This document shows, one piece after another, positions 3 to 19,947 of a DNA stretch of 27,250 nucleotides. Where the stretch lies: contig SCQK01000009.1 of NCBI GenBank assembly GCA_004321885.1, forward strand, positions 1 to 27,250, given 5' to 3'. Each line of letters opens with the position of its first letter. Position 1 is the stretch's first letter. Source of the DNA: Patescibacteria group bacterium (GTDB lineage: Bacteria > Patescibacteriota > Patescibacteriia > Magasanikbacterales > GWA2-37-8). Made by a program: the position numbers and the translations under genes. The notes under the pieces are model-generated. The model saw nothing but the letters and a program-made list of their open reading frames with translations. It was not told where the DNA came from and did not search any database.

Positions 3-3000
3 TATTTAAATAAAGAAGGAAAAAATCAATATGAACACTATCACCCAAATTTGGTTGATTTGATTAAAAAAACTGTAAAGGAAAGAGGTGAAATAGCGCC
101 GGAAGGATGGATGACTAATAAAGGGCTGGCGGAGATGTTGAAAAAAAACAAGTGGATAATTAATACGAAAGCCAATCAATACAGGCGTTCTTATCCTCAG
201 TGGTTTAAGGCGTATCTAATTCCGTCACTCAAACGGAAACATGAACATTATCATCCTAAATTAGTGGAAATAATTATTAAGGAGATTGAAAACGAAAAAG
301 AATATACTGAAAAAGACAAACTAAAGAAAGAAATGTGTGACTTTGTACAAGAATTAATCAATGGTAGTACAGATAAAAACAAGGATTTCCAATCAATAAT
401 ACGTGTCTGTGGCCCTTCACGCTATTTAGATATTCTTTATAAATTCCACCCTGAATATAAAGGATTGCCCGTGGATTACGTAAAAGGCGTCATCGCCGAC
501 TATCTTGGCGATTTTTTGGTAGCAAAAGGCGAATTTAGACCCGAAGATGTTCCTTTCACTTTAGAATATCTGTCGGATATCACTTTTCAAGAGGGCCTTT
601 ACGAAACCATCAAGGACAACTGTCTAAAATACTATTTTGAACAAAAACGTGCCGGCAAAAAAGACAGCCACGAAATAATTTATGGCTATCTAGATCACAT
701 GGTGAGCGAACTCGGCCACCTTAATAATTCAGTGCTTGATGACATCATTCAAAAAGTGATTGTTTACTACGATTCCGTTTTGCGTGACTTTTATAAGCCG
801 TCAAAATTCGTGAATACACTTAGCAAAGATCGCGAATTTCCGGATTTGAACCAAAAAATAAACATGAAAGAATTGACTGAAAAGAAACGCTTGCTCATCG
901 CCGATGAAATGGGTTTGGGGAAAAGTGCGTCGGTCATCATGGCCAAAGAACAATTGAGAATAAAATGCGCTTTAGTGGTAGCCCCCAGCAATGTATTAAA
1001 TACATGGCAACAATATTTGTCAGAAGTAGACGCTACTGACCCGAAAAGGGGCGGCTATTTCAAAAGCGGGCAAGCGCCACGGGTATTAAAGGTGGAAAAC
1101 GACGAGGACTTAGACCAAGTCAATGCCACTAACTACGACTACATCCTTATTTCCCAGGAACGTTTGAGCGGAGCCAATTATGTCGATAAATTACTGACGA
1201 CTGACTATGACATGTTGATAGCCGATGAAGTGCACAAATTGAAACGGCTTGAAAGCGCGCGCGCTCCGGAACTGTTACGGCTGGCGGGAAAAATAGAGGG
1301 AAAAGATAAATACCTGGCTCTTCTTTCCGGTACACCAATCCCAAATAAAATTGAAGATTTGGCTCTGTTACTCAAACTTCTTTATCCAAAAAAATTTGCT
1401 TCTGTTGATAGCGATGAACTCATCCAACAAATTATCTGCGGTGATACCATGGATCTGCGTGCTCTGTTGCTACCACGGATGCAAATGAAAAATTTGGAAG
1501 AGGGCGTGGAGATGCCTACGTTAACCGAAGAGACGATTAAAGTAGAACTTGATAAATTAGAAAAAGACATATATGAAGTACTCTTAGAGGAAAACGAACT
1601 AACCGCCTCGGAAAAAATAATAATGTTAAGACAATTTCTTTTAAATCCGGAATTGCTGAATTCTACTCCCGGGATTGAAGGTTCAAAAATAAAAGAACTA
1701 TCAAATAGCTTGGACACGGCTTTCCGACATCACGACAAAATCGTAGTGTTTGTTAATGACTACATTGAAGGAATAATGCGGGGGGAAAAATCAATCATAA
1801 AAAAATTACAATTGCCAGCCGATGTGACAATACGGGCAATACATGGAGAAACCGGCAAAGAGGAGCGGCTGGCAATACAGCAGGAATTGCGCCCGGCGCA
1901 TGGAAAATTTTTGCTATTTGTAAGCGGTCAGACAGCCGATGTGGGTGTTGATTATTCCGGCGCTCAACATGTCTTCTTCTACAATGAGCCATGGACCGAA
2001 TATCAAAAACGTCAAGAATTGGGCCGCGTCTATCGTCCCGGGCTGGAAGAAGGTTTGGAAAGCGACACGCTTGTCTCTGTCGGCACAATTGAAGAGGGCA
2101 TTCATGAATATATCCGCCGAAAATACATCGCCGTGGAAAAATTATTACGCGGGATTCCGATTACTGATTTGGAAAAAGAACTGCTGGAAAAAGACGAGAA
2201 AAGCAAGGAGCCGGATTTGTCAGTCAACCCGGAACTGGCCCAATACTATTTCTCTTCATGGGATAAGATGATGAAAATATTTGGTTATGTAAAAGAAATT
2301 GGCGAAGAAAAATTCAATAAATTTTTGTCCAAATACGCCAAGGATTACGCTGACTGCTATTTAGATCTGGGTAATCGCAGTTACCAGTCAAACGCCAACC
2401 GCGTATCCGGTACGCTAATCCATAAATTAGTGAAAGAATCCGGCAGTTCCGCGGAGTCACTGAAAATAATAGACATCGCTTCGGGCCCGGAAATGCTCAA
2501 ACAGCATATTGGAGACGAATATCGTGATAGAATTTTCAGCATTGATATCAACAAACAACATTTCGCGACACGAGAGGGTAACAAAAGAGTCGCTGGGAGC
2601 TTGTCGGCGATGCCTTTCGCAGATCAGTCCTTTGATTTCGCCAACATATCTCTTGCTCTGCATTACACTGGCTTCGCTCCAAGCAAGGGAAAACTGGAAC
2701 GGCTAAAAGTATTAATGGAAACTAATAGAATTCTGAAAGAGGGTGGCAAAGCGATAATTAATCTGATTTATACTCTTGAGCCGAAAGATTTTGAAAAATT
2801 TAAAGAAGCGGCCGAAGTGTTGGGTTTCCGAATTGTTGACGGATACACAGGCGAAGTTAGCGCGGACAAACAATATCTTTCCCGCGTCATTACGTTAGAA
2901 AAAATAAAAAATCTGGATACTAAATTGACCACGGAAGATATGTCCGGTCAATTGGGTAAAGAGAAGCTGGAGGGACTAAAATTCAAAAAAACTGAGGCGA

Positions 3001-3269
3001 AATTAAAGGATTCGCGACAGATTTTGACTTCTTTCAAATTGGGCGGCGCTAAAATTGACGTGCATTTTAACGAGGATGACTTAATGGTGTTAAAAGAAGA
3101 ACAAGAATTGTTGAGGGAGGGGGAATCGCTGAAGCGAAAGTACACAAAAATCGTAAATATACCGCCGCAAGAAATTATTGACCATAATTTTGTTCGCATC
3201 AAAATAGGAAAAAAATATATACTATTCAAAAAGTTATCCAAGGGCTCGGGAGTAGTAATAGTAAAATAA
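3..3269 (+). CDS. SNF2-family helicase fused to a C-terminal class I SAM-dependent methyltransferase; 5' end open at the window edge
   Basis: SNF2 motifs: I 'LIADEMGLGKS', II 'MLIADEVHKLK', III 'LSGTPIPNK', V/VI 'FVSGQTADVGVDYSGAQHVFFYNEPWTEYQKRQELGRVYRPG'. Class I MTase motifs: 'IIDIASGPE', 'SIDIN', 'PFADQSFDFANISLALHY', 'LKEGGKAII'. Reading frame is open back to nt 3, and the first listed start (TTG at 51) is probably internal. About 37% GC, lysine-rich C-terminus. Confidence 0.8.
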   Translation, partial: YLNKEGKNQYEHYHPNLVDLIKKTVKERGEIAPEGWMTNKGLAEMLKKNKWIINTKANQYRRSYPQWFKAYLIPSLKRKHEHYHPKLVEIIIKEIENEKEYTEKDKLKKEMCDFVQELINGSTDKNKDFQSIIRVCGPSRYLDILYKFHPEYKGLPVDYVKGVIADYLGDFLVAKGEFRPEDVPFTLEYLSDITFQEGLYETIKDNCLKYYFEQKRAGKKDSHEIIYGYLDHMVSELGHLNNSVLDDIIQKVIVYYDSVLRDFYKPSKFVNTLSKDREFPDLNQKINMKELTEKKRLLIADEMGLGKSASVIMAKEQLRIKCALVVAPSNVLNTWQQYLSEVDATDPKRGGYFKSGQAPRVLKVENDEDLDQVNATNYDYILISQERLSGANYVDKLLTTDYDMLIADEVHKLKRLESARAPELLRLAGKIEGKDKYLALLSGTPIPNKIEDLALLLKLLYPKKFASVDSDELIQQIICGDTMDLRALLLPRMQMKNLEEGVEMPTLTEETIKVELDKLEKDIYEVLLEENELTASEKIIMLRQFLLNPELLNSTPGIEGSKIKELSNSLDTAFRHHDKIVVFVNDYIEGIMRGEKSIIKKLQLPADVTIRAIHGETGKEERLAIQQELRPAHGKFLLFVSGQTADVGVDYSGAQHVFFYNEPWTEYQKRQELGRVYRPGLEEGLESDTLVSVGTIEEGIHEYIRRKYIAVEKLLRGIPITDLEKELLEKDEKSKEPDLSVNPELAQYYFSSWDKMMKIFGYVKEIGEEKFNKFLSKYAKDYADCYLDLGNRSYQSNANRVSGTLIHKLVKESGSSAESLKIIDIASGPEMLKQHIGDEYRDRIFSIDINKQHFATREGNKRVAGSLSAMPFADQSFDFANISLALHYTGFAPSKGKLERLKVLMETNRILKEGGKAIINLIYTLEPKDFEKFKEAAEVLGFRIVDGYTGEVSADKQYLSRVITLEKIKNLDTKLTTEDMSGQLGKEKLEGLKFKKTEAKLKDSRQILTSFKLGGAKIDVHFNEDDLMVLKEEQELLREGESLKRKYTKIVNIPPQEIIDHNFVRIKIGKKYILFKKLSKGSGVVIVK

Positions 3270-3483
3270 TTTTCTTCACCTACCAAACTTCAATGGCAGA
3301 TATACTATATAGCGACGTCGGACTCGCCCCCTATTTTGATATTGACAAAACTGCTAAAAATAGCATACTATTCCCTGCTGACTTATCAGTGGATAGCGGC
3401 TCCCGCCCGGTTTTAAAATTTCTTGACTACCGAGCGGGAACCACTATCAACCAACAACGTACATTCCGCAAGGAGAAATTCCG

Positions 3484-4623
3484 ATGGCTCTTTTCTTCCC
3501 CGGACTTTCAAAGACGTTTCTCGGACGCTACGAAAACAACCCCAAAGAGCTCCGCGTTCTCCAAGTGATCTGCGAACACCTGCGCAGTGGTTACACCACT
3601 GGAAAAAAGCGCGGCGCTGGATCTAAGGAAGACAAGGTCTTTCAAGACGCGAAGGACTCCCTGGAAAAAGAAGATGTCCCCTTGGAAAGAAAGGACTTCA
3701 TCTACATCAAAGCCGGGATCCGAATCGCCTACAAAATCCTCGTGGGCGAAGAGGGTGAGGATACGAGCACCACGCTTTCAGAAAACATCATCTCGGATTT
3801 GCGTGTGGATGGCATAACAAACTGGACAGAGGTGCTCCGGGCAAACGGCGACCTGGACTATCTGTTCAAGAATGAGCGCGAAACGGCCGCGCGGGCCGAA
3901 GCCGCGCTCACAGAAGCCCAAGCAACTCTGGAAAAGCTGGCGTCGCGCACCAACAAGGTGCGCGTGAGCGAAAAGCTCATAACCTTGGTTGGCGAACTGC
4001 TTCCCACGCTGGAGGATGTCCTCGCGGAAAACGAATCGCTCAAGGAGGCGGCATCGCGATTCGCCGAAGAGCGAACAGAATCAGAACGTAAGCTTCTCGA
4101 AGCCGAAACAATGATTCGCCTGCTCGAAGAGGACAACGATTCGGCCCAGGGCCGTTTGGACAGCGTCAGGGCAGAACTCCGGAAGGCCCATGACCTCTCG
4201 GTCTTGCAATTGGCTCTCCAATATCCACAGCATCCCCAGCTCATGGAGATAGCCCAACGCATTGAGGAAGATAAGAAGCAAGGGCAAAACGAGATGGGGA
4301 CGTTGGTTGCCCAACTACCAAAAACCTACACTGGAGGAACGATAGAATACAAGCAACGATTCCTCCGACTACTGTTCGATCTCGCGCGAAACGAACAGGA
4401 GCAGATCATCGGTCAACTGCGAAATCTGGCCGAACAGGGGCCGAAGCATGCTTCCTTGCACACGAGGAAGACGCAAATACGTCTCCTCTACAGCCCGATG
4501 GACTGCATGGTTTCCCGCGGCGCGGATGACATCCGCTTCACATGGAGCAAGGAGAACGGCGCGATTACCGTTCACTGGCTCTACCGAAAGGGCGATAGCC
4601 GCGTGCGTCAATCCGAGGCATAA
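3484..4623 (+). CDS. hypothetical coiled-coil protein in a GC-rich (foreign-looking) segment
   Basis: ATG preceded by AAGGAG 8 nt upstream. About 57-60% GC against an AT-rich neighbour. Central E/R/L/A-rich heptad-like region. Intrinsic terminator follows immediately. Confidence 0.6.
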   Translation: MALFFPGLSKTFLGRYENNPKELRVLQVICEHLRSGYTTGKKRGAGSKEDKVFQDAKDSLEKEDVPLERKDFIYIKAGIRIAYKILVGEEGEDTSTTLSENIISDLRVDGITNWTEVLRANGDLDYLFKNERETAARAEAALTEAQATLEKLASRTNKVRVSEKLITLVGELLPTLEDVLAENESLKEAASRFAEERTESERKLLEAETMIRLLEEDNDSAQGRLDSVRAELRKAHDLSVLQLALQYPQHPQLMEIAQRIEEDKKQGQNEMGTLVAQLPKTYTGGTIEYKQRFLRLLFDLARNEQEQIIGQLRNLAEQGPKHASLHTRKTQIRLLYSPMDCMVSRGADDIRFTWSKENGAITVHWLYRKGDSRVRQSEA

Positions 4624-4640: not shown

Positions 4641-4673
4641 ATCCCGCTGTTCGCCCGGCGGGATTCTTTTTTT
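4641..4673 (+). terminator. rho-independent terminator: ATCCCGC...GCGGGAT stem followed by TCTTTTTTT
   Basis: 7-bp GC stem with 10-nt loop and a U-tract. The U-tract overlaps the stop codon of the convergent - strand gene. Confidence 0.6.
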
Positions 4674-5916
4674 ACACCAACTCAAACCTCCGCCGGCGGC
4701 CGTAGAGAAGATAAATAATGAGAGCAATAATAGCTATAAAAATAAACGTGCGGTAATACGGCACATAAAGCGCGAGAACGCCCCAGCCGCTTATCCACTC
4801 AATAGAAATTGAGCCCTGCACCGTCTCCACGTTGTTTATCAACTGTCGGTCTTGCTGGTCCAAGAAAACAAGCTGTTCCTGTTCGTTTTTTATTCGCGCG
4901 TCAATTTCATTTCGTTTCTTCTGGTACTGCGCGTTCTCGTTGGCCAAAAGCTGATTAAGCCGGCGCTGTTCGGTTGACAGATTACTAACGGCGACCGCGA
5001 TTTCCTGTTGGCGCTCGGTGCTGGTGGTAAATTCTTTTTTTAATTTATTGATACTGTTAGCCGTATAGCTTAACTGTTGTTTTAGTGAAGCGACCTTGGT
5101 ATTATGGCTGACCACCAAGTCCTGCCTTTGTTTTTGCGAATCCGCCAGAGCGCTTTGGGAAGAAGCTGTGTTTTGTTCAATGACGGTTTTCTCGGGCAAC
5201 AGATTGCGCGAGTTTATTATTTCAGCCATAAAGCGCGGACTGGCGGCCAATTCCTTCAACTCGTCCTTAAACGATTCCATCTCTGATTTGGGTAGCACAA
5301 ATTCAATGCGCGCGTATTTGGAATCCGACGATGAATTGTCTACACGGCCGCCATGCCCGCGCACTATAGTCTGAGCGCGCGTCGCTTTCTTTTGCACTTG
5401 TCGTGTTTTAATTTCGGCGTGATAATCGGTTTTCAAGTATTCGCGGGTGTCAAAGGGTGAGGCCTGCGTAAAATAACGGCCAATACTTTTAGCGGCTCCA
5501 CCAACTATCTCGCCTACGATTCCACCAGCGGTAACCTCACGCGCGCTAAGACCGGTATACGCGCCATAAACAACGCCTAAATCGTTTGCGCTGATTTCTC
5601 CAGAAGAGGATCTCTGATAGCCAACTTTGCTCGCCGCATCATAACCGTAGCCAGCAGGGTTCAAACCATGATCGGCCGAAGTTAAACGATTTAAATAGAA
5701 ACCTTGCGTAACGAAAAATAAAATAGATAACCCCCCGCAGACAAACGCAATCCGCCAAGGATAACGAAAACGGCGACGTTCGGGTTGAACAGTATTTTGC
5801 GTTCTAAGCGCGGCAAAAATCCTCGCCTTCATCGCTTCGTTGCCAATTGGCAATATTCGCTCTTTCTGCCCCCAATGATGAAGTAAATCTTTTAAATTGT
5901 AACTGACTTGTGTCAT
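4672..5916 (-). CDS. DUF4349-like membrane protein (putative anti-sigma factor partner)
   Basis: TM helix 'IAFVCGGLSILFFVTQGFY' near the N-terminus and 'VLALYVPYYRTFIFIAIIALIIYLL' at the C-terminus. Q/E/K-rich coiled-coil segment. Lies directly downstream of, and co-oriented with, the ECF sigma gene. Confidence 0.55.
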   Translation of the reverse strand: MTQVSYNLKDLLHHWGQKERILPIGNEAMKARIFAALRTQNTVQPERRRFRYPWRIAFVCGGLSILFFVTQGFYLNRLTSADHGLNPAGYGYDAASKVGYQRSSSGEISANDLGVVYGAYTGLSAREVTAGGIVGEIVGGAAKSIGRYFTQASPFDTREYLKTDYHAEIKTRQVQKKATRAQTIVRGHGGRVDNSSSDSKYARIEFVLPKSEMESFKDELKELAASPRFMAEIINSRNLLPEKTVIEQNTASSQSALADSQKQRQDLVVSHNTKVASLKQQLSYTANSINKLKKEFTTSTERQQEIAVAVSNLSTEQRRLNQLLANENAQYQKKRNEIDARIKNEQEQLVFLDQQDRQLINNVETVQGSISIEWISGWGVLALYVPYYRTFIFIAIIALIIYLLYGRRRRFELV

Positions 5917-8741: not shown

Positions 8742-9893
8742 ATGTACCCAGCACGGTTAATTTTAAACACCGGCCAAGAATTTCTCGGCCTTTCACCCGC
8801 CTGGCAAAAAGGCGACTTTTACGGTTTACCCTCACACCAAAAATTTTGGTGTGAGGGCGAGGTTGTTTTTACGACCGGCATGACCGGCTATGTGGAAACT
8901 CTCACCGATCCTTCGTATGCCGGACAAATTATCGTCTTCACCTATCCGCTCATCGGCAACTACGCCGTGCCGCCGGCCAAATTCTGGGAATCGGAAAAAA
9001 TCCACGCGGCCGGAGTGGTGGTAGGCGAGGCGTGCCAGTGGCCTGATACCCCCTCCTCACCTCCCTCCCGAAACAAGTTCGGGACAGGCTCTTATAAAGG
9101 GGGAGGGACTTTGGCCGGATGGCTAAGAGAACAAAAGGTGCCTTTACTCACCGGGGTGGATACTCGCCTGCTTACCAAAACACTACGCGAGAAGGGTGCC
9201 ACGCCCGGAGCGATTACGTCTTACCCCTACCTAACCTCCCCCTTAAAAAGGGGGAGGAACAGGAGGGGGTATAATTTCTTTGACCCGAACGAAACAGATC
9301 TGGTGGCGCTGGTTTCTCCCAAAAGACCGACCACTTACGGCAAGGGGAAAAAGAGAATCATCGCCGTTGATTGCGGGATGAAAAAAAATCTGCTCCGCTC
9401 ACTCTTAAAATTACCGCTGACTATAAAAATCGTGCCGTACGACTACGATTATAACAAAGAAAAATTTGACGGCGTGTTTATCTCCAATGGCCCGGGCGAC
9501 CCGGAACGTTGCGGCCGAACGATAGAAATTCTGCGCCGCGCCATGAAAAAGAAAAAACCGATTTTCGGCGTCTGTCTGGGCAACCAGCTGTTAGCACTGG
9601 CGGCCGGAGCCAAAACCTACAAACTGCCCTTTGGCCACCGCGGACAAAATCAACCCTGCCAAGACAGCGCCACTGGCCGTTGTTATATCACCAGCCAAAA
9701 CCACGGCTACGCCGTGAACCCGGCCACCCTGCCGCCGGACTGGCGCGTGAGTTTCAAAAACTTAAACGACGATTCAGTGGAAGGCATCGGCCACAAATCA
9801 TTGCCGTTTTTCGCCGTGCAATTTCATCCCGAAGCGGCGCCCGGCCCCGCAGACACGCAGTGGCTTTTTGAAAAATTTTATGAAACTTTATAA
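8742..9893 (+). CDS. carA: carbamoyl-phosphate synthase small (glutaminase) subunit
   Basis: 'VVFTTGMTGYVETLTDPSYAGQIIVFTYPLIGNY', 'PIFGVCLGNQLLALAAGAKTYKLPFGHRGQNQP' (catalytic Cys), 'FAVQFHPEA'. Two in-frame family B element insertions. Confidence 0.9.
   Translation: MYPARLILNTGQEFLGLSPAWQKGDFYGLPSHQKFWCEGEVVFTTGMTGYVETLTDPSYAGQIIVFTYPLIGNYAVPPAKFWESEKIHAAGVVVGEACQWPDTPSSPPSRNKFGTGSYKGGGTLAGWLREQKVPLLTGVDTRLLTKTLREKGATPGAITSYPYLTSPLKRGRNRRGYNFFDPNETDLVALVSPKRPTTYGKGKKRIIAVDCGMKKNLLRSLLKLPLTIKIVPYDYDYNKEKFDGVFISNGPGDPERCGRTIEILRRAMKKKKPIFGVCLGNQLLALAAGAKTYKLPFGHRGQNQPCQDSATGRCYITSQNHGYAVNPATLPPDWRVSFKNLNDDSVEGIGHKSLPFFAVQFHPEAAPGPADTQWLFEKFYETL
9049..9108 (+). repeat. family B element (compound) in-frame in carA
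   Basis: 'cccctcctcacctccctcccgaaacaagttcgggacaggctcttataaagggggaggg' encodes 'PSSPPSRNKFGTGSYKGGG'. Contains inner hairpin TCCCGAA-acaag-TTCGGGA. Confidence 0.6.
9235..9272 (+). repeat. family B element in-frame in carA
   Basis: 'cctccccc-ttaaaaa-gggggagg-aacaggagggggtat' encodes 'SPLKRGRNRRGY'. Confidence 0.65.
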
Positions 9894-12800
9894 AGTTATA
9901 ATTCTCGGTTCCGGAGGATTGCAAATCGGCCAGGCCGGCGAGTTTGATTATTCGGGCTCCCAGGCCATCAAGGCCCTGAAAGAAGAAGGCATCAAAACCG
10001 TGCTGGTAAACCCCAACATCGCCACTGTTCAAACCGACCCAAACATGGCTGACGCGCTCTATCTTCAGCCGCTCAATTTTCAAACACTTAAAAAAATTAT
10101 CGCCAAAGAAAAACCGGACGGCATTTTGCTCGGCTTTGGCGGACAAACCGCGCTCAATCTGGGTTTGGAACTGGATGAAAAAGCCGTACTCCAAAAATAC
10201 GGCATGGCCGTGCTGGGTAGCGATACGCAAACAATACGAACAGCCGAAGACAGAAATTTATTCAAAATCGCGCTGGCGAAAATCGGAGTGAAGACTCCGA
10301 AAAGTTTTACCGCGCGCGACGTGAATGAAGCGCTGGCCGCGGGAAAACAAATCAGCTACCCCTTGATGATTCGCAGCGGCTTCTCTTTGGGCGGACTTGG
10401 TTCCGGAAAAATCGCCGACGCGCGGGAACTGAAACAACGCGCAGGCGAAGCGCTCTCCGGCGCCCCGCAAATCCTGGTGGAAGAATACCTGGGCGGCTGG
10501 AAAGAAGTGGAATACGAAGTGGTGCGCGACAGAAAAGACAACACCATTATTGTCTGCAACATGGAAAACATGGACCCGATGGGCATCCATACCGGTGAGA
10601 GCATCGTGGTGGCGCCTTCGCAGACCTTGAACAACGAACAGTATCATCGCCTGCGCGAGCTGTCCATCAAAATCGCCCGCCACCTGAAAATCATCGGCGA
10701 ATGCAACGTGCAATTCGCCTTGCACCCGAAAACCGGCGACTATCGCGTGATAGAACTCAACCCGCGCCTGTCGCGTTCATCGGCTCTGGCTTCCAAAGCC
10801 ACGGGCTATCCCCTGGCCTACATCGCGGCCAAGCTGGCCATCGGCAAACTTTTGCCTGAACTCAAAAATTCAGTCACCAAAAAAACCTCGGCCTTTTTTG
10901 AACCGGCCTTGGATTATCTGACAATAAAAATTCCGCGCTGGGACACAAACAAACTGCGCTCGGCCGAACGCTCCATCGGCTCGGAGATGAAAAGCGTGGG
11001 CGAAGTGATGGCCATTGGACGCTCGTTTCCCGAAGCATTGCAAAAAGCCGTGCGTATGCTGAATATCGGCGCCGACGGGCTAAGCGATTATCCGTTTCCC
11101 ATCGCCGAACCGAAAAAAGAAATGGAGAACGCCACCGACCGACGTTTGTTCGCGCTTTACCAATTTTTTAAAAAAGGCGGCGGCGTAAAAGAAGCCGGGC
11201 AACTTACGAGTATAAACGAATGGTTTCTGGCGCACATCAAAAACATCGCGGCGCTGGAAAAAACAATCAAAAATAAACGACTAACGCCAGCCCTGCTTTT
11301 ACAAGCCAAGCAATTCGGCTTTAGCGACGTCGGTCTGGCAAAATTAAAAAATACTGACGAGAAAAAAATCAGGCGCCTGCGCAAAAAAAACAAAATCCTG
11401 CCGTGCTTTAAACAAATAGACACCCTGGCCGGCGAATATCCGGCCGAGACGAATTATTTATACGCCACCTACCACGGCGCCGGACACGATATCGCCGCTT
11501 TGGACAAAAAACCGATCATCGTCCTCGGCTCTGGTCCGTACGCCATCGGTTCGTCGGTGGAATTTGACTGGTGCGCCGTGAACACGGCCCGCGCCCTGCG
11601 CGCCTTGGACAAAAAAACAATAATGCTCAACTCCAATCCGGAAACAGTCTCCACTGACTACGACGAATCCGACCGTTTGTATTTTGAAGAGCTGACTTTG
11701 GAGCGCGTGGCTGACATCGCTGATTTTGAAGGCGGCGCGAAGGCGTCTTTTGAATCTACACCCGGCATTGTTGTTTCGGTCGGCGGACAAATCGCCAATA
11801 AAATCGCTCTGCCGCTTTTTGAAATGGGTTATAAAATTTTAGGCACCCCGCCCGTGGCCATAGACCAGGCCGAAGACAGACAAAAATTTTCCTCACTCTT
11901 GAATAAATTAAAAATAGACCAGCCGGAATGGATTGAGTCGGGTAATTTGAGTAAAGCCAAGGCTTTCGCCAAAAATTTCGGGTATCCGGTCCTGGTGCGG
12001 CCGTCATACGTGCTCTCTGGCGCGGCCATGAACGTGTGCCCGAACGAAGATGAACTGACAAACTATCTACGTTCGGCTTCGGCCGTTTCTCCCGACCATC
12101 CGGTGGTTATTTCCAAATTTATCACCAATGCCAAAGAGTTAGACATAGACGGAGTGGCCGACAAGGGAAAAATTATAATAGAAGCGATTTGCGAACACGT
12201 GGAAAACGCGGGCGTGCACTCGGGCGACGCCACCCTGGTCTTGCCCCCGCAAAAACTTTATTTGGAAACGATTCGCCGCGCCAAAAACATCGCTCGCGCC
12301 ATCGCCAAATCACTCAAAATCACCGGGCCCTTTAACATCCAGTTCATTGCCAAGGATAACGCGCTCAAAGTGATAGAGTGCAACTTGCGCGCTTCCCGCT
12401 CTTTTCCTTTCGTATCCAAAGTGACCGGACATAATTTCATAGAACTGGCCACCAAGGCCATGCTGGGCGGTGTTGGAGTTCCTCCCCCTCTTAGGGGGAG
12501 GATAAAGGAGGGGGTATTTGAAACCCTGGAGCTCAACCACGTCGGCGTGAAGTCGCCGCAATTTTCTTACCACCGACTGAAAGGAGCCGACCCGGTGGCG
12601 CAAGTGGAAATGGCTTCCACCGGAGAGGTGGCCTGTATCGGCGGCGATTATTTGCGCGCCTTTTATTCTTCCTGGCTGGCCACGGGCAAAAATATCAGCC
12701 GCCGCCGGGCGCTTGTCACCATTGCCGATGAATGCAAACAAAAATTCTTGCCATTAGTGAAAAAAATGGACAAACAGGGCTGGGAAATATATACTACTGC

Positions 12801-13110
12801 CGGCACCCACGACTTTTTGTCGCGCCACGGAGTGGCCAGCAACTTTGTTTACAAAATCAGCGAGCAAAACAAGCCGAACGTGGAGGCAACGATTTCAGAA
12901 AAGCAAGTTGACGTAATCATTGTCATTCCGAGCGAAGCGAGGAATCTCTGTTTATCAAACGACAGCGACGGCTACAAAATTCGCCGGCTGGCCACGGACC
13001 GCCACATCCCACTTATCACCAACTCGCAAACCGCTATTTTGCTCTTGCGCTGTCTCACCGAACTTGACGCCAATAAAATGCCGATAAAATCGTGGCAAGA
13101 ATATTTTTAA
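9868..13110 (+). CDS. carB: carbamoyl-phosphate synthase large subunit
   Basis: 1080 aa. Two ATP-grasp halves ('[20 protein letters not shown]', '[20 protein letters not shown]') and a C-terminal MGS-like domain. Overlaps the carA 3' end by 26 nt. Confidence 0.95.
12481..12517 (+). repeat. family B element in-frame in carB
   Basis: 'cctccccc-tctta-gggggagg-ataaaggagggggtat' encodes '[13 protein letters not shown]'. Confidence 0.7.
12921..12946 (+). repeat. family A short hairpin element in-frame in carB
   Basis: 'tgtcattccgagcgaagcgaggaatc' encodes 'VIPSEARNL' in the MGS-like domain. Confidence 0.6.
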
Positions 13111-13191
13111 TGTCATTGCGAGGAGCGGAGCGACGAAGCAATCCCATACAATTAAGGGGATTGCCACGGCCCTGCGGGCCTCGCAATGACA
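13111..13191 (+). repeat. family A full-length palindromic element filling the carB-pyrB intergenic space
   Basis: Begins immediately after the carB TAA. Termini 'tgtcattgcgagg...cctcgcaatgaca' are 13-bp perfect inverted repeats. Inner hairpin 'gcaatccc...gggattgc'. Confidence 0.75.
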
Positions 13192-13199
13192 ATACAATT

Positions 13200-14120
13200 A
13201 TGCCAAACACACTCAAAGGCAGGGACATAATTTCCATCGCGGAACTTTCCAAGCCGGAAATTCTGCTGGTGCTAAAAAACGCGCAAGAATTAAAAAAACA
13301 CCCGCGCCCGAAACTGCTGGAAGGGCTGGTGATGGGCAGTTGTTTTTTTGAACCCAGCACGCGCACGCGCTTGTCGTTTGAAACAGCCATGCAGAAGTTG
13401 GGCGGACGGGTAATCGGCTTTGCCGACCCGGGCGTGACTTCGGCCAAGAAAGGCGAGTCGCTGTACGACGCCATAAAAATCATCGGCCAATACGTGGATG
13501 TCATCGCCATGCGCCATCCGTTGGAGGGAGCGGCGCGACGCGCGGCCGAGGCCACGGACAAACCAATCATCAACGGCGGCGACGGAGCCAACCAGCACCC
13601 CACCCAAACCCTGCTGGACTTGTTCACTATTCAAGAATGCCAGAAAAAATTAAGCAACCTTCATATCGCCATGGTCGGCGACCTGAAATATGGCCGCACC
13701 GTGCACTCGCTGGCCCAGGCGCTTACCCATTTTGGCGCCCGCCTGTATTTCGTGGCGCCCGACAGCTTGCAGATGCCCGCGTATATTTGCGATGAATTAA
13801 AAACCAAAGGCGTCAAATTCTCCATGCACAAAAAAATGGAAGAGGTAATCGGCAAAGTTGATATTTTTTACATGACCCGCATCCAGGGCGAACGTTTTGC
13901 CGACCCGATGGAGTACGAAAAAGTAAAAAACAGTTTCGTGCTCAAGGCCGACATGCTAAAAAACGCCAAACCAAACCTGAAAATCTTGCACCCCTTGCCG
14001 CGCGTGAACGAAATTGAAACAGCCATAGACAAAACAAAATTCGCCTACTATTTCCAGCAAGCGGAAAACGGGCTCTATGCCCGCCAGGCCCTGCTGGCGA
14101 TGGTGTTGGGAAAAATTTAA
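13200..14120 (+). CDS. pyrB: aspartate carbamoyltransferase catalytic subunit
   Basis: '[11 protein letters not shown]', 'HPTQTLLDL' and 'LHPLPR' motifs. Start taken at 'MPNTLKGRD' (ATG 13200), just after the element. The ORF-track 13092 start reads through the palindrome. Confidence 0.9.
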
Positions 14121-14123
14121 TAA

Positions 14124-14208
14124 TGTCATTGCGAGGCCCAAGGGGCCGAAGCAATCTCAGACAAGTAAGGGATTGCCACGTCGGCCTGCAGGCCTCCTCG
14201 CAATGACA
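14124..14208 (+). repeat. family A full-length palindromic element filling the pyrB-pyrI intergenic space
   Basis: 'tgtcattgcgagg...cctcctcgcaatgaca'. Same architecture as 13111-13191, with a different centre. Confidence 0.75.
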
Positions 14209-14216
14209 AAAATTTT

Positions 14217-14681
14217 ATGAAAGAAAAAAAACTTTTGGTCAACGCCATAAAAAACGGCACGGTGATAGACCACATCACCGCCGGTAGCGCGCTCAAAATC
14301 ATCCGCATCCTCAATCTGGCCAGCCACGAAAAAGTCGTGACGGTCGGGCTGAACTTGCCCAGCAAATCCATGGGGCGCAAGGACTTAATCAAAGTAGCCG
14401 AGCGCGAACTTTCACCCGATGAAGTAAGCAGCGTGGCCATTCTGGCGCCGCAAGCCAGCATCAACATCGTCAAAAATTACGAAATAGTTAAAAAATTTAA
14501 AATAAAACTACCGGAAAAAATTGAGAGCGTAGTTGTTTGCCCCAACCCGAAATGCATTACCAACCACGAGCCCATGGCCAGCGTGTTTTTTATTCTGCCC
14601 AACGGCAAACACATTAAACTGCGTTGTAAATATTGCGAAAAAGTTTTTGGTCACGATGATATCCGTGAATATAGAGTATAA
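14217..14681 (+). CDS. pyrI: aspartate carbamoyltransferase regulatory subunit
   Basis: 'AIKNGTVIDHI', 'GLNLPSKSMGRKDLIKV', zinc domain 'CPNPKCITNHEP...LRCKYCEKVF'. Confidence 0.9.
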   Translation: MKEKKLLVNAIKNGTVIDHITAGSALKIIRILNLASHEKVVTVGLNLPSKSMGRKDLIKVAERELSPDEVSSVAILAPQASINIVKNYEIVKKFKIKLPEKIESVVVCPNPKCITNHEPMASVFFILPNGKHIKLRCKYCEKVFGHDDIREYRV

Positions 14682-14690
14682 AAACACCAT

Positions 14691-15857
14691 ATGAGCCGGC
14701 TCATAACTTTACCCGCTTTGATTGACCCGCACGTGCATTTTCGTACCCCGGGTTCCGAGCACAAAGAGGATTGGATTTGCGGAGCGCGCGCCGCCTTCGC
14801 CGGCGGATACACCACGGTGATTGACATGCCGAACAACAACCCGCCGGCGATTGATGAAGAGTCATTGAATAACAAAATCAAGCTCGTGGAACAACAACTG
14901 TCATTCCTGCGAAAGCAGGAAGGGAGCCCTTCGGGCTCGGAATTCATTTCTGTCCACCCATATTTTTATCTCGGGGTTACTCCCCTCCCCCTTGATAAGG
15001 GGGAGGCAGGGTGGGGGTCGGCGGTAGCCCTCAAAATGTTCATGGGTTCCAGCACCGGCAGTTTGCTGGTGGACAAATACGAAGACCAGGAAAAAATATT
15101 CGCCAAAGCCGCTGAACTTGATTTGCTGGTGGCAGTGCACGCAGAAGATGATGAAACAATAAAAAATAATCAACTGTCATTCCAGCAAAAGCTGGAATCC
15201 ATCGCCAATCCAGTCGCTCTTCACTCGCAAATCCGCTCGCGTGAGGCGGCGATAAAAGCCGTGTCGCAAGCGATTGAACTGGCGGAAAAGACCGGCGCGC
15301 GATTATATATCTGCCATATTAGCACAAAGGAAGAAGCTGAATTGGTTAAATCGGCTAAAGAGCGCGGAGCCAAAATTTATGCCGAAGTCACACCGCATCA
15401 TTTGTTTCTGAACGAAAGCGCGTATGAAACATTGGAGACAAAAGCGCAAATGAATCCGCCTCTGCGCACGGCCGCGGACCAAGCGGCGCTCTGGCAGGCG
15501 ATAAACGACGGAGTAATAGACACCATCGGCACCGACCACGCTCCGCATACTTTGGAAGAAAAAAATCAACCATACCCCAAATCGCCTTCGGGCGTGCCCG
15601 GCATTGAGACATGTTTGCCGCTATTGCTCAACGCGTACAATCAGGGTAAAATCAGTTTAGAGAAAATAGTGGAATTATGCCGGACAAATCCGCAAAAAAT
15701 ATTCCGTTTGCCTGATAACAGTGACGAGGTGATTGTGGATTTGGATTTGGAAAAAGAGGTAAAAAATGAGAATTTAAAAACTAAATGCGGCTGGTCGCCC
15801 TTTGCTGGGTGGAATCTAAAGGGGTGGCCGATAAAAACGATAATTATGAAAAAGTAA
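14691..15857 (+). CDS. pyrC: dihydroorotase
   Basis: 'LIDPHVHFRTPG' metal-binding motif, 'GTDHAPH'. Contains three in-frame element insertions. The stop codon lies inside the left terminal repeat of a MITE-like element. Confidence 0.85.
   Translation: MSRLITLPALIDPHVHFRTPGSEHKEDWICGARAAFAGGYTTVIDMPNNNPPAIDEESLNNKIKLVEQQLSFLRKQEGSPSGSEFISVHPYFYLGVTPLPLDKGEAGWGSAVALKMFMGSSTGSLLVDKYEDQEKIFAKAAELDLLVAVHAEDDETIKNNQLSFQQKLESIANPVALHSQIRSREAAIKAVSQAIELAEKTGARLYICHISTKEEAELVKSAKERGAKIYAEVTPHHLFLNESAYETLETKAQMNPPLRTAADQAALWQAINDGVIDTIGTDHAPHTLEEKNQPYPKSPSGVPGIETCLPLLLNAYNQGKISLEKIVELCRTNPQKIFRLPDNSDEVIVDLDLEKEVKNENLKTKCGWSPFAGWNLKGWPIKTIIMKK
14899..14921 (+). repeat. family A short hairpin in-frame in pyrC
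   Basis: 'tgtcattcctgcgaaagcaggaa' is TTCCTGC-GAAA-GCAGGAA. Encodes 'SFLRKQE'. Followed by a small hairpin 'gagccc-ttc-gggctc'. Confidence 0.7.
14982..15018 (+). repeat. family B element in-frame in pyrC
   Basis: 'cccctccccc-ttgataa-gggggagg-cagggtgggggt' encodes 'PLPLDKGEAGWG'. Confidence 0.7.
15175..15198 (+). repeat. family A short hairpin in-frame in pyrC
   Basis: 'tgtcattccagcaaaagctggaat' is ATTCCAGC-AAAA-GCTGGAAT. Encodes 'LSFQQKLE'. Confidence 0.7.
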
Positions 15858-16014
15858 GAAATTTGAACGGTGGTCTCGCTCGGATAGTTACGGACTCGCT
15901 GTCGCTTTTTGACCCAATGAGCATAATCGCATGGATCAAAATGCCTTCGGCACCGCTCCAACTCGTCTCGTAACTGCACCTCGCTCGCCCAATGTTCAAA
16001 TTTCTTACTTTTTC
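15848..16014 (+). mobile_element. MITE-like element: 21-bp perfect terminal inverted repeats flanking about 125 bp
   Basis: Left 'gaaaaagtaagaaatttgaac' (15848-15868) is the exact reverse complement of right 'gttcaaatttcttactttttc' (15994-16014). The interior carries direct 'CTCGCTCG' repeats. The pyrC TAA is within the left repeat. Confidence 0.5.
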
Positions 16015-16028
16015 TCACATCCATTTTT

Positions 16029-16982
16029 ATGAAACATCTAATCTCCCTAAAGGAACAAACAAAAGAAGACCTGCTGGAAATTTTGGATTTAGCAAAAAAA
16101 GTTAAAGCCACATACAAGGCCGGTGAGACGATGGAGCCATTAAAAAACAAAACCCTGCTCATGCTTTTTCAAAAAAGCTCCACGCGCACGCGCCTGTCGT
16201 TTGAGGCCGGCATAACCGAACTGGGCGGACACGCCATTTTTCTGGACAGCCGCGCCACGCAATTTTCGCTCACTGATTTCGGCGATGAAATAAAAGCCGT
16301 AATGCGCTTTGGCGACATCCTGATGTTTCGGGCCATGAAAGCGGCGGACGTGGAAAAGGCGGCGGGCTTCAATCAGATTCCGGTGATAGACGGTTGCAGT
16401 GAAAAATATCACCCGTGCCAGGCCTTGGGAGACATTTTGACAATGAGTGAGCATGCCAATGGACTGGAAAACGTGAAAAAAATCACTTGGCTGGGAATTG
16501 AAAACAACGTCTCTAACACCCTGACGCTGGCCGGCGCCAAACTGGGAATTGAAGTGACCATCGCCGCGCCCGAAGCCAACCCGGCCAGCGTGGACGCGGA
16601 GTTAAACGCCCAGGCCTCTGCCGTCGGCAAAGTGACACGCACTTTGAATTTGGCCGAAGCGCTGGCTGGCGCGAATTTCATCCACACCGACACCTGGATG
16701 GATATGGAATTTTTTTCCGACGGAAAAGTGAAGCCGCAATTTGAAGCCGAATACGAACGGCGCAAACGGGTGTTCACGCCTTTTCAACTAAACGCGGGCT
16801 TAATAAACACCCACGCCCCGCAAGCGAAAATTATGCACTGCATGCCGTGTCATGTGGGCTATGAAATTTCACGCGACGCCATAGACCATCCCAATTCAAT
16901 AATTTTTGACCAGGCGGAAAATCGCAAACACATCCAAAAAGCGATTATTCTTTGGCTACTTGGTATTCCCTCCCCTTTATAA
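16029..16982 (+). CDS. ornithine-carbamoyltransferase-family transcarbamylase paralog (substrate uncertain)
   Basis: 'STRTRLSFE', 'HPCQALGDILT', 'HCMPC' (OTC HCLP-type) and a C-terminal 'SIIFDQAENRKH' closely like OTCase. The ornithine-binding 'DxxxSMG' is 'DTWMDME'. Confidence 0.75.
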   Translation: MKHLISLKEQTKEDLLEILDLAKKVKATYKAGETMEPLKNKTLLMLFQKSSTRTRLSFEAGITELGGHAIFLDSRATQFSLTDFGDEIKAVMRFGDILMFRAMKAADVEKAAGFNQIPVIDGCSEKYHPCQALGDILTMSEHANGLENVKKITWLGIENNVSNTLTLAGAKLGIEVTIAAPEANPASVDAELNAQASAVGKVTRTLNLAEALAGANFIHTDTWMDMEFFSDGKVKPQFEAEYERRKRVFTPFQLNAGLINTHAPQAKIMHCMPCHVGYEISRDAIDHPNSIIFDQAENRKHIQKAIILWLLGIPSPL

Positions 16983-17004
16983 GGGGAGGGTTAGGGTGGG
17001 GTAT
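16968..17004 (+). repeat. family B element spanning the OTC-paralog stop and the pyrD RBS
   Basis: 'ccctcccc-tttataa-ggggaggg-ttagggtggggtat'. The TAA stop of the upstream gene is inside the hairpin loop. GGGTGGGG lies 5 nt before the pyrD ATG. Confidence 0.7.
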
Positions 17005-17005
17005 T

Positions 17006-17917: not shown

Positions 17918-17921
17918 ATGT

Positions 17922-18067
17922 CCCCCTCCCCTATTTGCGAAAAGAGTGAGAGAAAAAGCAAACTTGTTGCTTTTTCCGAACGAATGAGCAAATATCCGCA
18001 GATATTAGGGGAGGGATAAACCCCGTTAGAGGTCTGCAGACCTCTAACGGGGTAAAGGGTGGGGTTA
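17922..18067 (+). repeat. compound family B region in the pyrD-pyrK intergenic space
   Basis: 'cccctcccc' (17922) pairs with 'ggggaggg' (18008) across a 70-nt insert that contains AAAAAGCAA-acttg-TTGCTTTTT. This is followed by a perfect hairpin 'ccccgttagaggtctgcagacctctaacgggg' (18021-18052). A 'taaagggtggggtt' SD-like tail precedes the pyrK ATG. Confidence 0.6.
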
Positions 18068-18072
18068 AACGT

Positions 18073-18945: not shown

Positions 18946-18961
18946 GTCCAAAGCCAATTAT

Positions 18962-19006
18962 AAAAAAAGAAAAAGCTCTCATTCCGTGCGATGACGAAAC
19001 GAGAGC
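18962..19006 (-). terminator. rho-independent terminator for the - strand GC-rich gene
   Basis: - strand: GCTCTCGTTTCG-loop-CGGAATGAGAGC (imperfect 11-bp stem) followed by TTTTTCTTTTTTT. Confidence 0.5.
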
Positions 19007-19082
19007 GAAACGAACCGAGGGACCAAGTGACCCAAGCCCTTCCGATTTGGCGAAAGGGCTGAGGCACCAAGGATCCCAGGGC

Positions 19083-19730: not shown

Positions 19731-19895
19731 GGCTGTTCTCCTTTCCGGCGCCTCGCCAGAATGGCAATTTGCCCCGCCCCGGGGCTCGGGTTTTTATGCT
19801 AAAAATAACAAAGAGCTAACAGCGATTTATATCACAACATTACTGCTTCTGTCAAGCTAAACACCGTCACAACCGCCATATCCTTTCACAAACCC

Positions 19896-19928: not shown

Positions 19929-19938
19929 TAATTTTTTA

Positions 19939-19947
19939 TGGTATGAT
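19939..19947 (+). promoter_or_regulatory. extended -10 promoter TGGTATGAT for fic-pyrE-pyrF
   Basis: TGnTATGAT 29 nt upstream of the fic ATG. Same box type as 'TGGTATAAT' at 6712-6720. Confidence 0.45.

What the first reader, a model, noticed from the sequence alone, without database searches (positions are those of the whole stretch)
3..3269. Giant AT-rich SNF2 helicase fused to a small-molecule/RNA-type SAM methyltransferase, with an internal N-terminal sequence repeat
A single 1072+ aa polypeptide combines a complete SNF2 ATPase (motifs I-VI) with a Methyltransf_11-like domain. That domain lacks the DPPY/NPPY motif, so it is not an obvious DNA N6-MTase. The C-terminus is a Lys-rich coiled coil. 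The N-terminal 280 aa are unrecognisable and contain the repeat 'YEHYHPNLVDLIKK' (nt 30-71) and 'HEHYHPKLVEIIIK' (nt 240-281). At about 37% GC it is compositionally foreign to the pyr region. SNF2 plus MTase modules occur separately in defence systems such as DISARM, so a fused form could be a single-chain defence or epigenetic effector. The gene is open at the window edge.
Basis: partly seen in the sequence, partly recalled or inferred. Interest (0 to 1): 0.65.

Follow-up and report, generated by a model that had tools for sequence, protein, structure and literature searches.

The report
CPR giant SNF2–Rrp8-like methyltransferase fusion
The open reading frame is the 3' two-thirds of a giant protein found only in Patescibacteria (CPR), which joins a chain of DNA-binding modules, a chromatin-remodeller-type motor and a methyltransferase most like the eukaryotic rRNA enzyme Rrp8; the combination is real, conserved and undescribed, but what it does is still inferred.

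Summary
Nucleotides 3-3269 (+) are one ORF of 1088 codons, open at the contig edge, with an intact SNF2 motor and a class-I SAM methyltransferase (MTase) that has no DPPY/NPPY motif.

Three details need correcting:
- **GC:** it is 0.40 overall, and 0.33-0.37 only in the first ~900 nt.
- **C-terminus:** it is Lys-rich but is predicted to be a folded alpha/beta domain, not a coiled coil.
- **N-terminal repeat:** it is the last 1.3 copies of a tandem array of ~68-aa winged-helix DNA-binding modules, with up to 12 copies in relatives.

The window is a whole Patescibacteria contig. The same one-ORF fusion recurs in about 60 genomes across CPR classes. The family is small, about 153 clusters at 50% identity.

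No DISARM, Zorya, Dpd or PLD partners occur. The only recurrent neighbour is a dedicated 100-170-aa protein with moderate similarity to alkyladenine DNA glycosylase. It is present in about 37% of loci and cannot be checked in the window, because upstream lies off the contig.

The gene is AT-shifted relative to its hosts across the family.

Best reading: an accessory, DNA-tracking purine methyltransferase. Its function is unproven.

The parts
3..3269 (+). 5'-truncated gene for the giant (wHTH)n-helical-SNF2-Rrp8-like MTase-CTD protein. 1088 codons are visible. Full-length relatives have 1100-1900 aa.
   Evidence: P0001 is this very protein; its contig is 27250 bases long, the same as the window.
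3..71 (+). C-terminal third of a winged-helix repeat module, cut by the contig edge. It holds the 'YEHYHPNLVDLIKK' copy.
   Evidence: The repeat HMM matches aa 1-23 to model positions 46-67 (E 3e-5). Self-alignment.
81..284 (+). One complete ~68-aa winged-helix (MerR/RacA/Par-like) DNA-binding module, ending in 'HEHYHPKLVEIIIK'.
300..788 (+). Conserved all-helical domain with no recognisable relative (aa ~100-262). It is present in both long and short forms of the family.
882..2042 (+). SNF2-type ATPase motor: N-lobe aa 294-538 and C-lobe aa 563-680. Motif I DEMGLGKS at nt 903-926, motif II DEVHKLK at 1224-1244, motif III LSGTP at 1323-1337, motif VI at 2016-2042.
   Evidence: Pfam and motif scan. 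The best solved relatives are the dsDNA translocases SSO1653 (1z63, E 1e-16), ISWI, Ino80 and Chd1.
2229..2909 (+). Class-I SAM methyltransferase domain, Rrp8/nucleomethylin-like (aa 743-969). Motif I IIDIASGPE at nt 2466-2492, motif II FSIDIN at 2535-2552, motif IV LALHYT at 2652-2669, followed by a family-specific insertion.
2922..3266 (+). Conserved Lys-rich alpha/beta C-terminal domain (aa 974-1088), packed against the MTase. Fold not identified.
   Evidence: AF2 pLDDT is 84-96 over this stretch. Invariant F282, N294, D297, L314, P325, R336, L345, F346 and G354, in segment numbering. Pfam finds no family.

Best explanation
Shown: the ORF encodes the C-terminal ~1,090 residues of a Patescibacteria-specific multidomain enzyme. 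Its parts, in order, are:
1. A tandem array of MerR/RacA/Par-like winged-helix DNA-binding modules. The array is truncated here; relatives have 0-12 copies.
2. A conserved helical domain.
3. An intact SNF2 dsDNA-translocase-type motor.
4. A class-I SAM methyltransferase whose closest known relative is eukaryotic RRP8/nucleomethylin, with invariant SAM-binding motifs.
5. A conserved C-terminal alpha/beta domain.

Inferred mechanism:
- The winged-helix array anchors the protein on double-stranded DNA.
- The SNF2 motor translocates along the duplex and distorts it, exposing bases.
- The Rrp8-like domain then methylates a ring nitrogen of a purine. By analogy with Rrp8 this would be N1 of adenine, a position hidden in intact duplex. 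The target could be DNA or nucleic acid held at the motor.
- In at least a third of lineages a dedicated small protein with an alkyladenine-DNA-glycosylase-like core is encoded next to the gene. It would recognise or excise the methylated purine.

Sporadic distribution, shifting neighbourhoods, variable repeat number and host-atypical codon composition mark this as an accessory, probably horizontally moving module. That points to a role in genome conflict (defence) or DNA marking rather than core housekeeping.
For: Architecture:
- Pfam and motifs.
- AF2 models: pLDDT 89.9 for MTase+CTD and 82.1 for the N-terminus.
- Pfam PF05148 passes its cut-off in homologues P0006 and P0023.
- 1-12 tandem copies occur in 71 of 121 family members.

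DNA as the track:
- The SNF2 core is closest to SSO1653, ISWI and Ino80.

A catalytic MTase:
- D95, A97, S98, G99, P100, S117, D119, N121, H158, Y159, E170 and R171 are invariant in 21 sequences that are 46-64% identical to the window protein.

Conserved fusion across CPR:
- 60 loci in Levy-, Roizman-, Saccharimonadia, Paceibacterota, Peri-, Kaiser-, Uhr-, Doudna- and Gracilibacteria among others, almost always as one ORF.

Accessory or mobile:
- Only 153 clusters (50% identity) at E<=1e-30 among 1.84 billion representatives.
- No conserved synteny.
- Gene GC is below that of the flanks in 43 of 53 loci. Gene GC3 is below host GC3 in 17 of 19 GC-rich hosts (Wilcoxon p 1e-6).

Partner:
- A small protein is present in 22 of 60 loci and adjacent in 21.
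- In the reverse look-up, three of four partner genes lie about 90 nt (one ~390 nt) upstream of an annotated SNF2 giant. The fourth is followed by an ORF cut by the contig end and not annotated.
- AAG-likeness: hhalign probability 79%, E 1.6e-5 over 104 colinear columns for one subfamily. The two subfamilies are linked at 96.8%. Equivalents of AAG Glu125, Tyr127 and Asn169 are conserved in 69-95% of 58 members.
Against: - No substrate has been shown. The nearest characterised MTase acts on rRNA, not DNA, and identity to it is only 17-19%.
- Motif IV (HY) and a 9-residue insertion differ from RRP8, so base and atom specificity cannot be transferred.
- The glycosylase link is moderate at best. 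Profile searches of the partner against PDB sequences found nothing. Only 1 of 58 members gives a sub-threshold Pfam MPG hit in the large set. The subfamily that aligns best with AAG lacks the catalytic Glu.
- The partner is absent from more than half of the loci and cannot be checked in the window.
- Gene GC3 still tracks host GC3 (r 0.67, slope 0.54), so long residence with an intrinsic AT bias is possible instead of transfer.
- No homologue occurs in phage or plasmid collections, and neighbourhoods are mostly housekeeping rather than defence islands.
Confidence: 0.4

Rival explanations
1. Transcription-coupled RNA methyltransferase. The protein binds DNA (for example rDNA) through its winged-helix array and rides with or behind RNA polymerase like RapA. 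Its Rrp8-like domain places m1A (or a similar mark) on nascent rRNA or another RNA.
For: The MTase domain is closest to the rRNA m1A enzyme RRP8/nucleomethylin by sequence and by two structure methods. Yeast Rrp8 makes m1A645 of 25S rRNA (PMC6085284, listed). Other top structural neighbours include rRNA and tRNA MTases: Bud23/WBSCR22, Trm9 and Trm11. A weak RapA-model match covers the SNF2 N-lobe.
Against: The RapA model scores 29.9 bits against a 576 cut-off. The motor is closest to dsDNA translocases. A housekeeping rRNA modifier should be widespread, syntenic and compositionally native. This family is small, sporadic, AT-shifted and variable in repeat number. A DNA-glycosylase-like partner is not expected for an RNA enzyme.
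Confidence: 0.15
2. Alkylation-damage repair factor. A CSB/Mfd-like SNF2 translocase recruits a mini-AAG glycosylase to lesions. The MTase-fold domain binds SAM or methylated bases as a sensor rather than catalysing methyl transfer.
Against: Invariant motif I/II and motif IV residues suggest catalysis rather than binding alone. A repair function would not explain a 0-12-copy DNA-binding array or host-atypical composition. The repair-gene neighbours are single occurrences, not recurrent.
Confidence: 0.15
3. Nucleoid remodeller with protein methyltransferase activity. The motor repositions DNA-bound proteins, and the MTase methylates a nucleoid-associated or ribosomal protein.
Confidence: 0.1
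4. A member or single-chain version of a known SNF2-containing defence system (DISARM, Zorya, Dpd, BREX-associated BrxH) or a Type ISP/III restriction-modification enzyme.
For: PADLOC and NCBIfam models for ZorD, DpdE, DrmD, BrxH and HmaA match the protein (best 7e-22). SNF2 with an MTase is a recurring defence pairing (established knowledge).
Against: All matches cover only the generic SNF2 core, with scores of 15-55 bits against equivalog cut-offs of 500-1500. There is no nuclease domain, no N6-adenine or C5 MTase motif, and no PLD, DUF1998 or Mrr partner in the window or the related loci examined. The MTase+CTD has no hit in phage or plasmid records.
Confidence: 0.05

Closest known systems
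RRP8 / nucleomethylin (Pfam PF05148 Methyltransf_8; PDB 2zfu), the eukaryotic 25S/28S rRNA m1A methyltransferase
   Different: Identity is only 17-19%. The window protein scores 17.5 bits against the 27-bit cut-off. Motif I is DxASGP rather than DxGCG. Motif IV is HY followed by a 9-residue insertion. The domain has an added three-helix N-terminal cap and a C-terminal alpha/beta domain. It is fused to SNF2 and winged-helix modules, is bacterial (CPR) and is sporadically distributed.
Prokaryotic SNF2 ATPases of defence and DNA-modification systems (DISARM DrmD, Zorya ZorD, Dpd DpdE, BREX BrxH)
   Same: An SF2/SNF2 motor with all helicase motifs, which co-occurs with a methyltransferase activity. 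An accessory, patchy distribution.
   Different: Scores lie far below every family cut-off. There are no partner genes (DrmA/B/C, ZorA-C, Dpd cluster, PglX/Z) and no nuclease. The MTase belongs to a different class and is fused in cis.
Sulfolobus SSO1653 and eukaryotic ISWI/Ino80/Chd1 remodeller ATPases
   Same: They are the closest solved relatives of the motor (E 1e-16 to 1e-12). These are dsDNA minor-groove translocases.
   Different: Entirely different accessory domains, and no histone-related modules.
RacA / pSK1 Par / MerR-type winged-helix DNA-binding domains
   Different: Here the module is iterated up to 12 times in tandem in one chain and carries a characteristic C-terminal 'E[HY][YF]xP[DE]L[IV]' helix. 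It has no Pfam family of its own.
Alkyladenine DNA glycosylase AAG/MPG (Pfam PF02245; PDB 1f4r), as a comparison for the small partner protein of related loci
   Same: A colinear profile alignment over ~104 columns (probability 79%, E 1.6e-5). Equivalents of Glu125, Tyr127 and Asn169 are conserved in most members.
   Different: It is half the size (100-170 aa against ~200-aa cores). It lacks the AAG insertion and the C-terminal third. It falls below Pfam thresholds and has no PDB sequence hit. One subfamily lacks the catalytic Glu. It is not present in the visible part of the window.
Polyvalent SNF2-methylase proteins of phages and conjugative elements
   Same: Very large single chains that combine an SNF2 motor with a methyltransferase (comparison from established knowledge).
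   Different: Those carry N6-adenine DNA MTases and ride on mobile elements. This family has an Rrp8-like MTase, lies in chromosomes among housekeeping genes, and has no hit in 50,697 phage or 72,556 plasmid records.

Membership tests
SNF2 family ATPase (Pfam PF00176 + PF00271) | SNF2-rel_dom and Helicase_C above the gathering scores | tested here: met
   75.4 bits against 24.9, and 49.3 against 23.5
SNF2 family ATPase (Pfam PF00176 + PF00271) | Helicase motifs I, Ia, II (DExH), III, V and VI intact | tested here: met
   DEMGLGKS, VVAPSNV, DEVHKLK, LSGTP, SGQTADVG and ELGRVYRPG were all located and are nearly invariant in 40 homologues
Methyltransf_11 class-I SAM MTase (PF08241) | Score above the gathering cut-off, with a SAM-binding motif I and an acidic motif II | tested here: met
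   32.3 bits against 21.2. D95-x-A-S-G-P and D119 are invariant
Rrp8 / Methyltransf_8 (PF05148) | Score above the Pfam gathering cut-off (27 bits) | tested here: not met
   The window protein scores 17.5 bits. Homologues P0006 (31.9) and P0023 (27.8) pass
Rrp8 / Methyltransf_8 (PF05148) | Closest fold among solved structures | tested here: met
Rrp8 / Methyltransf_8 (PF05148) | N1-adenosine methylation of large-subunit rRNA | not testable with these tools
   Needs a biochemical assay or nucleoside mass spectrometry
DNA N6-adenine / N4-cytosine MTases | (D/N/S)PP(Y/F/W) catalytic motif IV | tested here: not met
   No such motif anywhere in the 1088 residues. Motif IV is LALHYT
DISARM (DrmD with DrmA/DrmB, DrmMI/II, DrmC) | DrmD equivalog score | tested here: not met
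   NF038317 scores 34.3 bits against a 610 cut-off, over the N-lobe only
DISARM (DrmD with DrmA/DrmB, DrmMI/II, DrmC) | Neighbouring DUF1998 helicase, DUF499 and PLD nuclease genes | tested here: not met
   Absent downstream in the window. Absent from the eleven related loci annotated with Pfam, and no large recurrent neighbour in ~60 loci. Upstream of the window could not be seen
Zorya ZorD / Dpd DpdE / RapA | Equivalog model scores | tested here: not met
   ZorD 15.5 against 1500, DpdE 45.9 against 500, RapA 29.9 against 576
Type ISP / Type III restriction-modification enzymes | A nuclease domain plus an N6-adenine MTase and target-recognition domain in the same system | tested here: not met
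   No nuclease family was detected and there is no NPPY-type MTase
Polyvalent proteins of phages and conjugative elements | Encoded on phage, plasmid or ICE genomes | tested here: not met
   tblastn of the MTase+CTD gave no match in the phage or plasmid collections. Chromosomal housekeeping neighbours
AAG/MPG glycosylase (PF02245), for the partner protein of related loci | Pfam gathering score, or significant profile-profile similarity | tested here: inconclusive
   Best Pfam E-value is 0.0015, below the cut-off. hhalign probability is 79% for subfamily c2 and 1% for c1 alone, while c1 and c2 are linked at 96.8%. No structure model could be made

The most novel reading that the evidence does not exclude
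This would be a CPR-specific two-component 'write-and-excise' DNA system. A winged-helix-guided SNF2 motor opens duplex DNA so that an Rrp8-like domain can place a Watson-Crick-face or ring-nitrogen methyl group (m1A-type) on DNA. A dedicated mini-AAG glycosylase then reads or removes that base. The outcome would be either restriction of invading DNA through abasic sites or a reversible epigenetic mark. Neither the modification chemistry nor the pairing of motor, MTase and glycosylase has been described in any organism.
Probability: 0.15. Interest if true: 0.85.

Novelty: new variant of a known kind. Interest (0 to 1): 0.6.

Why it matters
SNF2 motors paired with methyltransferases are a known theme in prokaryotic DNA modification and defence. 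Every described case uses N6-adenine or C5/N4-cytosine DNA MTases. Here the MTase is of the Rrp8/nucleomethylin type, otherwise known from eukaryotic rRNA m1A formation and rDNA silencing. It is covalently joined to a remodeller-type motor and to up to a dozen DNA-binding modules, in bacteria with ~1-Mb genomes where a 4-6-kb gene is a large investment.

If the substrate is DNA, this would reveal a new enzymatic DNA base modification and perhaps a glycosylase that reads it. If the substrate is RNA, it would be a new way to couple rRNA modification to the template. Either way it gives bacterial relatives of the Rrp8 fold and a testable function for an unannotated CPR gene family. The short forms of ~1,100 aa, such as the one in the closed Roizmanbacteria genome CP066689, are tractable for heterologous expression.

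Tried and rejected
1. **Contig extension.** The exact protein exists on one contig only, which is the window itself, and the nearest relative is 65% identical. The 5' end could not be recovered.
2. **Defence-system membership.** PADLOC and NCBIfam gave only sub-threshold SNF2-core matches. Rejected.
3. **Conserved operon partners.** All-against-all clustering of up to 4 neighbours on each side in 61 loci found only the small AAG-like protein as family-specific. The other recurrent clusters were generic ABC ATPases and HTH_3 regulators.
4. **Partner identity by PDB sequence profile.** Two searches found nothing relevant. A Pfam scan of 58 members gave one sub-threshold MPG hit.
5. **A diverse AAG profile.** The profile-profile test is therefore weaker than it could be.
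7. **AFDB fold search.** The library was unavailable.
9. **Phage or plasmid origin.** No matches.
10. **Literature.** Two full-text searches found no description of this fusion. The one CPR methyltransferase preprint mentions SWI2/SNF2 only generically.
11. **Eukaryotic contamination or a two-gene artefact.** Rejected on gene content and on single-ORF conservation.
Full report
**1. The observation**

Frame 3 of the + strand is open from nt 3 to the stop at 3267-3269, giving 1088 codons. The first possible start listed is a TTG at nt 51. The ORF runs off the 5' edge.

- Pfam places SNF2-rel_dom at aa 294-538 (75 bits), Helicase_C at 563-680 (49 bits) and Methyltransf_11 at 824-919 (32.3 bits, cut-off 21.2). 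There is a sub-threshold Methyltransf_8 (Rrp8) match at 793-945.
- All SNF2 helicase motifs are present, and no (D/N/S)PP(Y/F/W) motif exists anywhere.
Their alignment scores 70 against 24 +/- 4 for shuffles.

Three details need correction:
- Gene GC is 0.401, not ~0.37. Only the first ~900 nt are 0.32-0.37.
- The Lys-rich tail (17.8% K) is predicted with high confidence to be a compact alpha/beta domain, not a coiled coil.
- The N-terminus is not featureless (section 2).

**2. What it is**

The protein collection holds this exact protein once (P0001). NCBI calls it 'methyltransferase domain-containing protein [Patescibacteria group bacterium]', on a contig of 27,250 bases. The window is therefore the whole contig.

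*The family*
- Hundreds of relatives at 45-65% identity are 1,100-1,900 aa long and share SNF2 + Helicase_C + Methyltransf_11. Many also carry precomputed PF05148 and N-terminal HTH hits.
- A scan of one genome per species found 60 loci in named CPR lineages: Levy-, Roizman-, Saccharimonadia, Paceibacterota, Minisyncoccota, Peri-, Taylor-, Kaiser-, Uhr-, Magasanik-, Vogel-, Doudna- and Gracilibacteria.
- In nearly all of them the whole architecture is one ORF. The few splits are L008, L029 and L063, plus a Gracilibacteria locus broken by reading UGA as a stop.
The rest of the contig is an ordinary bacterial chromosome segment: an ECF sigma factor, gatB, carA, carB, pyrB, pyrC-like, pyrD, pyrK, Fic, pyrE, pyrF and a class II aminoacyl-tRNA synthetase.

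*N-terminal repeat*
- The 'E[HY][YF]xP[DE]L[IV]' signature recurs every 68-70 residues in homologues.
- An HMM built from 52 units finds 1-12 tandem copies in 71 of 121 family members. In the window it finds a partial copy (aa 1-23) and a full copy (aa 27-94).
- The contig therefore ends inside the array. The nearest relatives, P0002 (1839 aa, 12 copies) and P0003 (1439 aa, 6 copies), suggest that roughly 220-750 residues are missing.
- The AF2 model (pLDDT 82) shows helix-turn-helix, a beta-hairpin wing and a trailing helix.
- The repeat consensus hits Pfam HTH_29 'winged helix-turn-helix'.
- Residues ~100-262 form a conserved helical domain with no informative match.

*Motor*
- The closest solved relatives are SSO1653 (E 1e-16) and ISWI, Ino80, Chd1 and Snf2. 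These are double-strand DNA translocases.

*Methyltransferase*
- A profile of the last 359 residues from 21 family members has as its best PDB hit 2zfu, the MTase domain of human nucleomethylin/RRP8 (E 2.6e-6).
- PF05148 passes its cut-off in some homologues but not in the window protein.
- Motif I (DxASGP), motif II (SxDxN), H158-Y159 at motif IV and E170-R171 in a family-specific insertion are invariant. That argues for an active enzyme with its own substrate pocket.
- Yeast Rrp8 makes m1A645 of 25S rRNA (PMC6085284, seen).

**3. Context and distribution**

- The profile of MTase+CTD finds only 153 clusters (50% identity) at E<=1e-30 among 1.84 billion representatives. Almost all sit at the C-terminus of proteins over 1,000 aa. 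This is a small family for a radiation with many thousands of species.
- Neighbourhoods differ from genome to genome and are mostly housekeeping.
- Clustering of flanking ORFs over 61 loci found no nuclease, DUF1998 or other large partner.
- PADLOC and NCBIfam defence models match only the SNF2 core at a few percent of their cut-offs.
- The MTase+CTD has no match in phage or plasmid records.

*The small partner*
- The single family-specific neighbour is a protein of 100-170 aa. It is present in 22 of 60 distinct loci and directly adjacent in 21. Many loci are truncated on one side, so this is a lower bound.
- Its two subfamilies are homologous (hhalign 96.8%).
- Its own family is small (59 clusters), CPR-only and unannotated.
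- In four reverse look-ups, three partner genes lay upstream of an annotated SNF2 giant (about 90 nt in two loci, ~390 nt in one). The fourth was followed by an ORF cut by the contig end and not annotated.
- Similarity to alkyladenine DNA glycosylase is moderate:
  - Sub-threshold PF02245 hits occur in a few members.
  - hhalign gives probability 56% against human AAG (sequence verified against 1f4r) and 79% (E 1.6e-5, 104 columns) against a vertebrate AAG profile for one subfamily.
  - The other subfamily conserves residues aligned to AAG Glu125, Tyr127 and Asn169.
  - PDB sequence searches were negative, and no model could be made.
- The window shows no such gene downstream. Upstream is off the contig.

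*Composition*
- The drop in GC ends at about nt 3300-3450, the 3' end of the gene.
- Across 53 loci the gene is lower in GC than its flanks in 43.
- In hosts with GC3 >= 0.5 it is lower in 17 of 19 (mean 0.445 against 0.572).
- Gene GC3 follows host GC3 with slope 0.54.
- The 'foreign' look is therefore a property of the family. It is compatible with movement among CPR genomes or with an intrinsic AT bias.

**4. Mechanism**

*Shown.* The protein is a DNA-binding array, a DNA translocase, an apparently catalytic Rrp8-like MTase and a conserved C-terminal domain, all in one chain. It is kept together across CPR classes and is accessory in distribution.

*Inferred.*
- The array docks on DNA and the motor moves along or unwinds it.
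- The MTase methylates a purine ring nitrogen that is accessible only in distorted nucleic acid.
- The AAG-like partner, where present, recognises or removes that base.
- I give about 0.4 to this DNA-tracking methyltransferase model with a conflict or marking role.

*Rivals.*
- Co-transcriptional RNA (rRNA) methylation: 0.15.
- An alkylation-repair factor with a sensor-type MTase fold: 0.15.
- A protein methyltransferase/remodeller: 0.1.
- Membership of DISARM, Zorya, Dpd or restriction-modification systems: 0.05.

**5. Comparison and novelty**

- The protein is a bona fide SNF2 ATPase and a Methyltransf_11-type MTase.
- It resembles Rrp8 most but fails the Pfam membership threshold and differs in motif IV and accessory elements.
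- It is not a member of any catalogued defence family.
- I found no description of this architecture in two full-text searches.
- I class it as a new variant of a known kind (SNF2 motor plus methyltransferase). There is a minority chance that it represents a new kind of DNA modification/excision system.

**6. Verdict**

The DISARM-style interpretation is not supported, but 'accessory defence or epigenetic effector' remains open. Interest is 0.6. This is a well-defined, unannotated, CPR-wide family with an unexpected MTase class and an intriguing partner. Its function rests on inference, and the window copy is truncated.

Noticed in passing
window 8742-22520: There is a near-complete de novo pyrimidine pathway on a contig labelled Patescibacteria: carA, carB, an ATCase-type gene at 13092-14120, an amidohydrolase (pyrC-like) at 14691-15857, pyrD, pyrK-like, pyrE-like and pyrF. 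CPR bacteria are generally described as unable to make nucleotides (abstract of the preprint listed). Either this lineage is unusual or the contig's taxonomic label deserves checking.
   Followed up: no
window 13092-14120 and 16029-16982: Two separate aspartate/ornithine carbamoyltransferase-family genes lie in the same cluster. One may be an OTCase, or they may be a duplicated ATCase.
   Followed up: no
window 19976-21031: A Fic/DOC-family gene sits between the pyrK-like and pyrE-like genes, next to the highest-GC stretch of the contig (0.58 at 18.5-20 kb).
   Followed up: no
window 3484-4623: A 379-aa ORF immediately downstream of the finding matches no Pfam, NCBIfam or PADLOC family. It has GC 0.53-0.58 and ends at a strong terminator-like hairpin at 4641-4664. 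It does not recur next to relatives of the finding.
   Followed up: partly
L003 8139-9971 (Roizmanbacteria CP066689); L007 4446-6182; L050 3183-4865; L051 4223-7095: Short-form family genes that lack the winged-helix array are often preceded by separate ORFs. In L003 this is a 610-aa protein with internal beta-rich repeats and no Pfam hit. In L007, L050 and L051 the upstream ORFs match only the N-terminal part of the family profile. These may be stand-alone targeting subunits.
   Followed up: partly
L006 and L036: Two divergent copies of the family gene (62% and 49% identical to the window segment) come from the same metagenome-assembled genome, binchicken_co203_499. This is either paralogy within a genome or mixed binning.
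   Followed up: no
L066 5921-12479; L070 11731-12459: In one locus the family gene starts 2 nt after the NAD-dependent DNA ligase gene. In another, an AlkD-type 'DNA_alkylation' repair gene lies two genes downstream. These are single occurrences, noted because they touch on the DNA-alkylation hypothesis.
   Followed up: no
window 4672-5916 (-) and L065 2783-3799: A DUF4349-like gene lies within a few kb of the family gene both in the window (weak, 24.8 bits) and in the locus of homologue P0006. This may be a coincidence.
   Followed up: no
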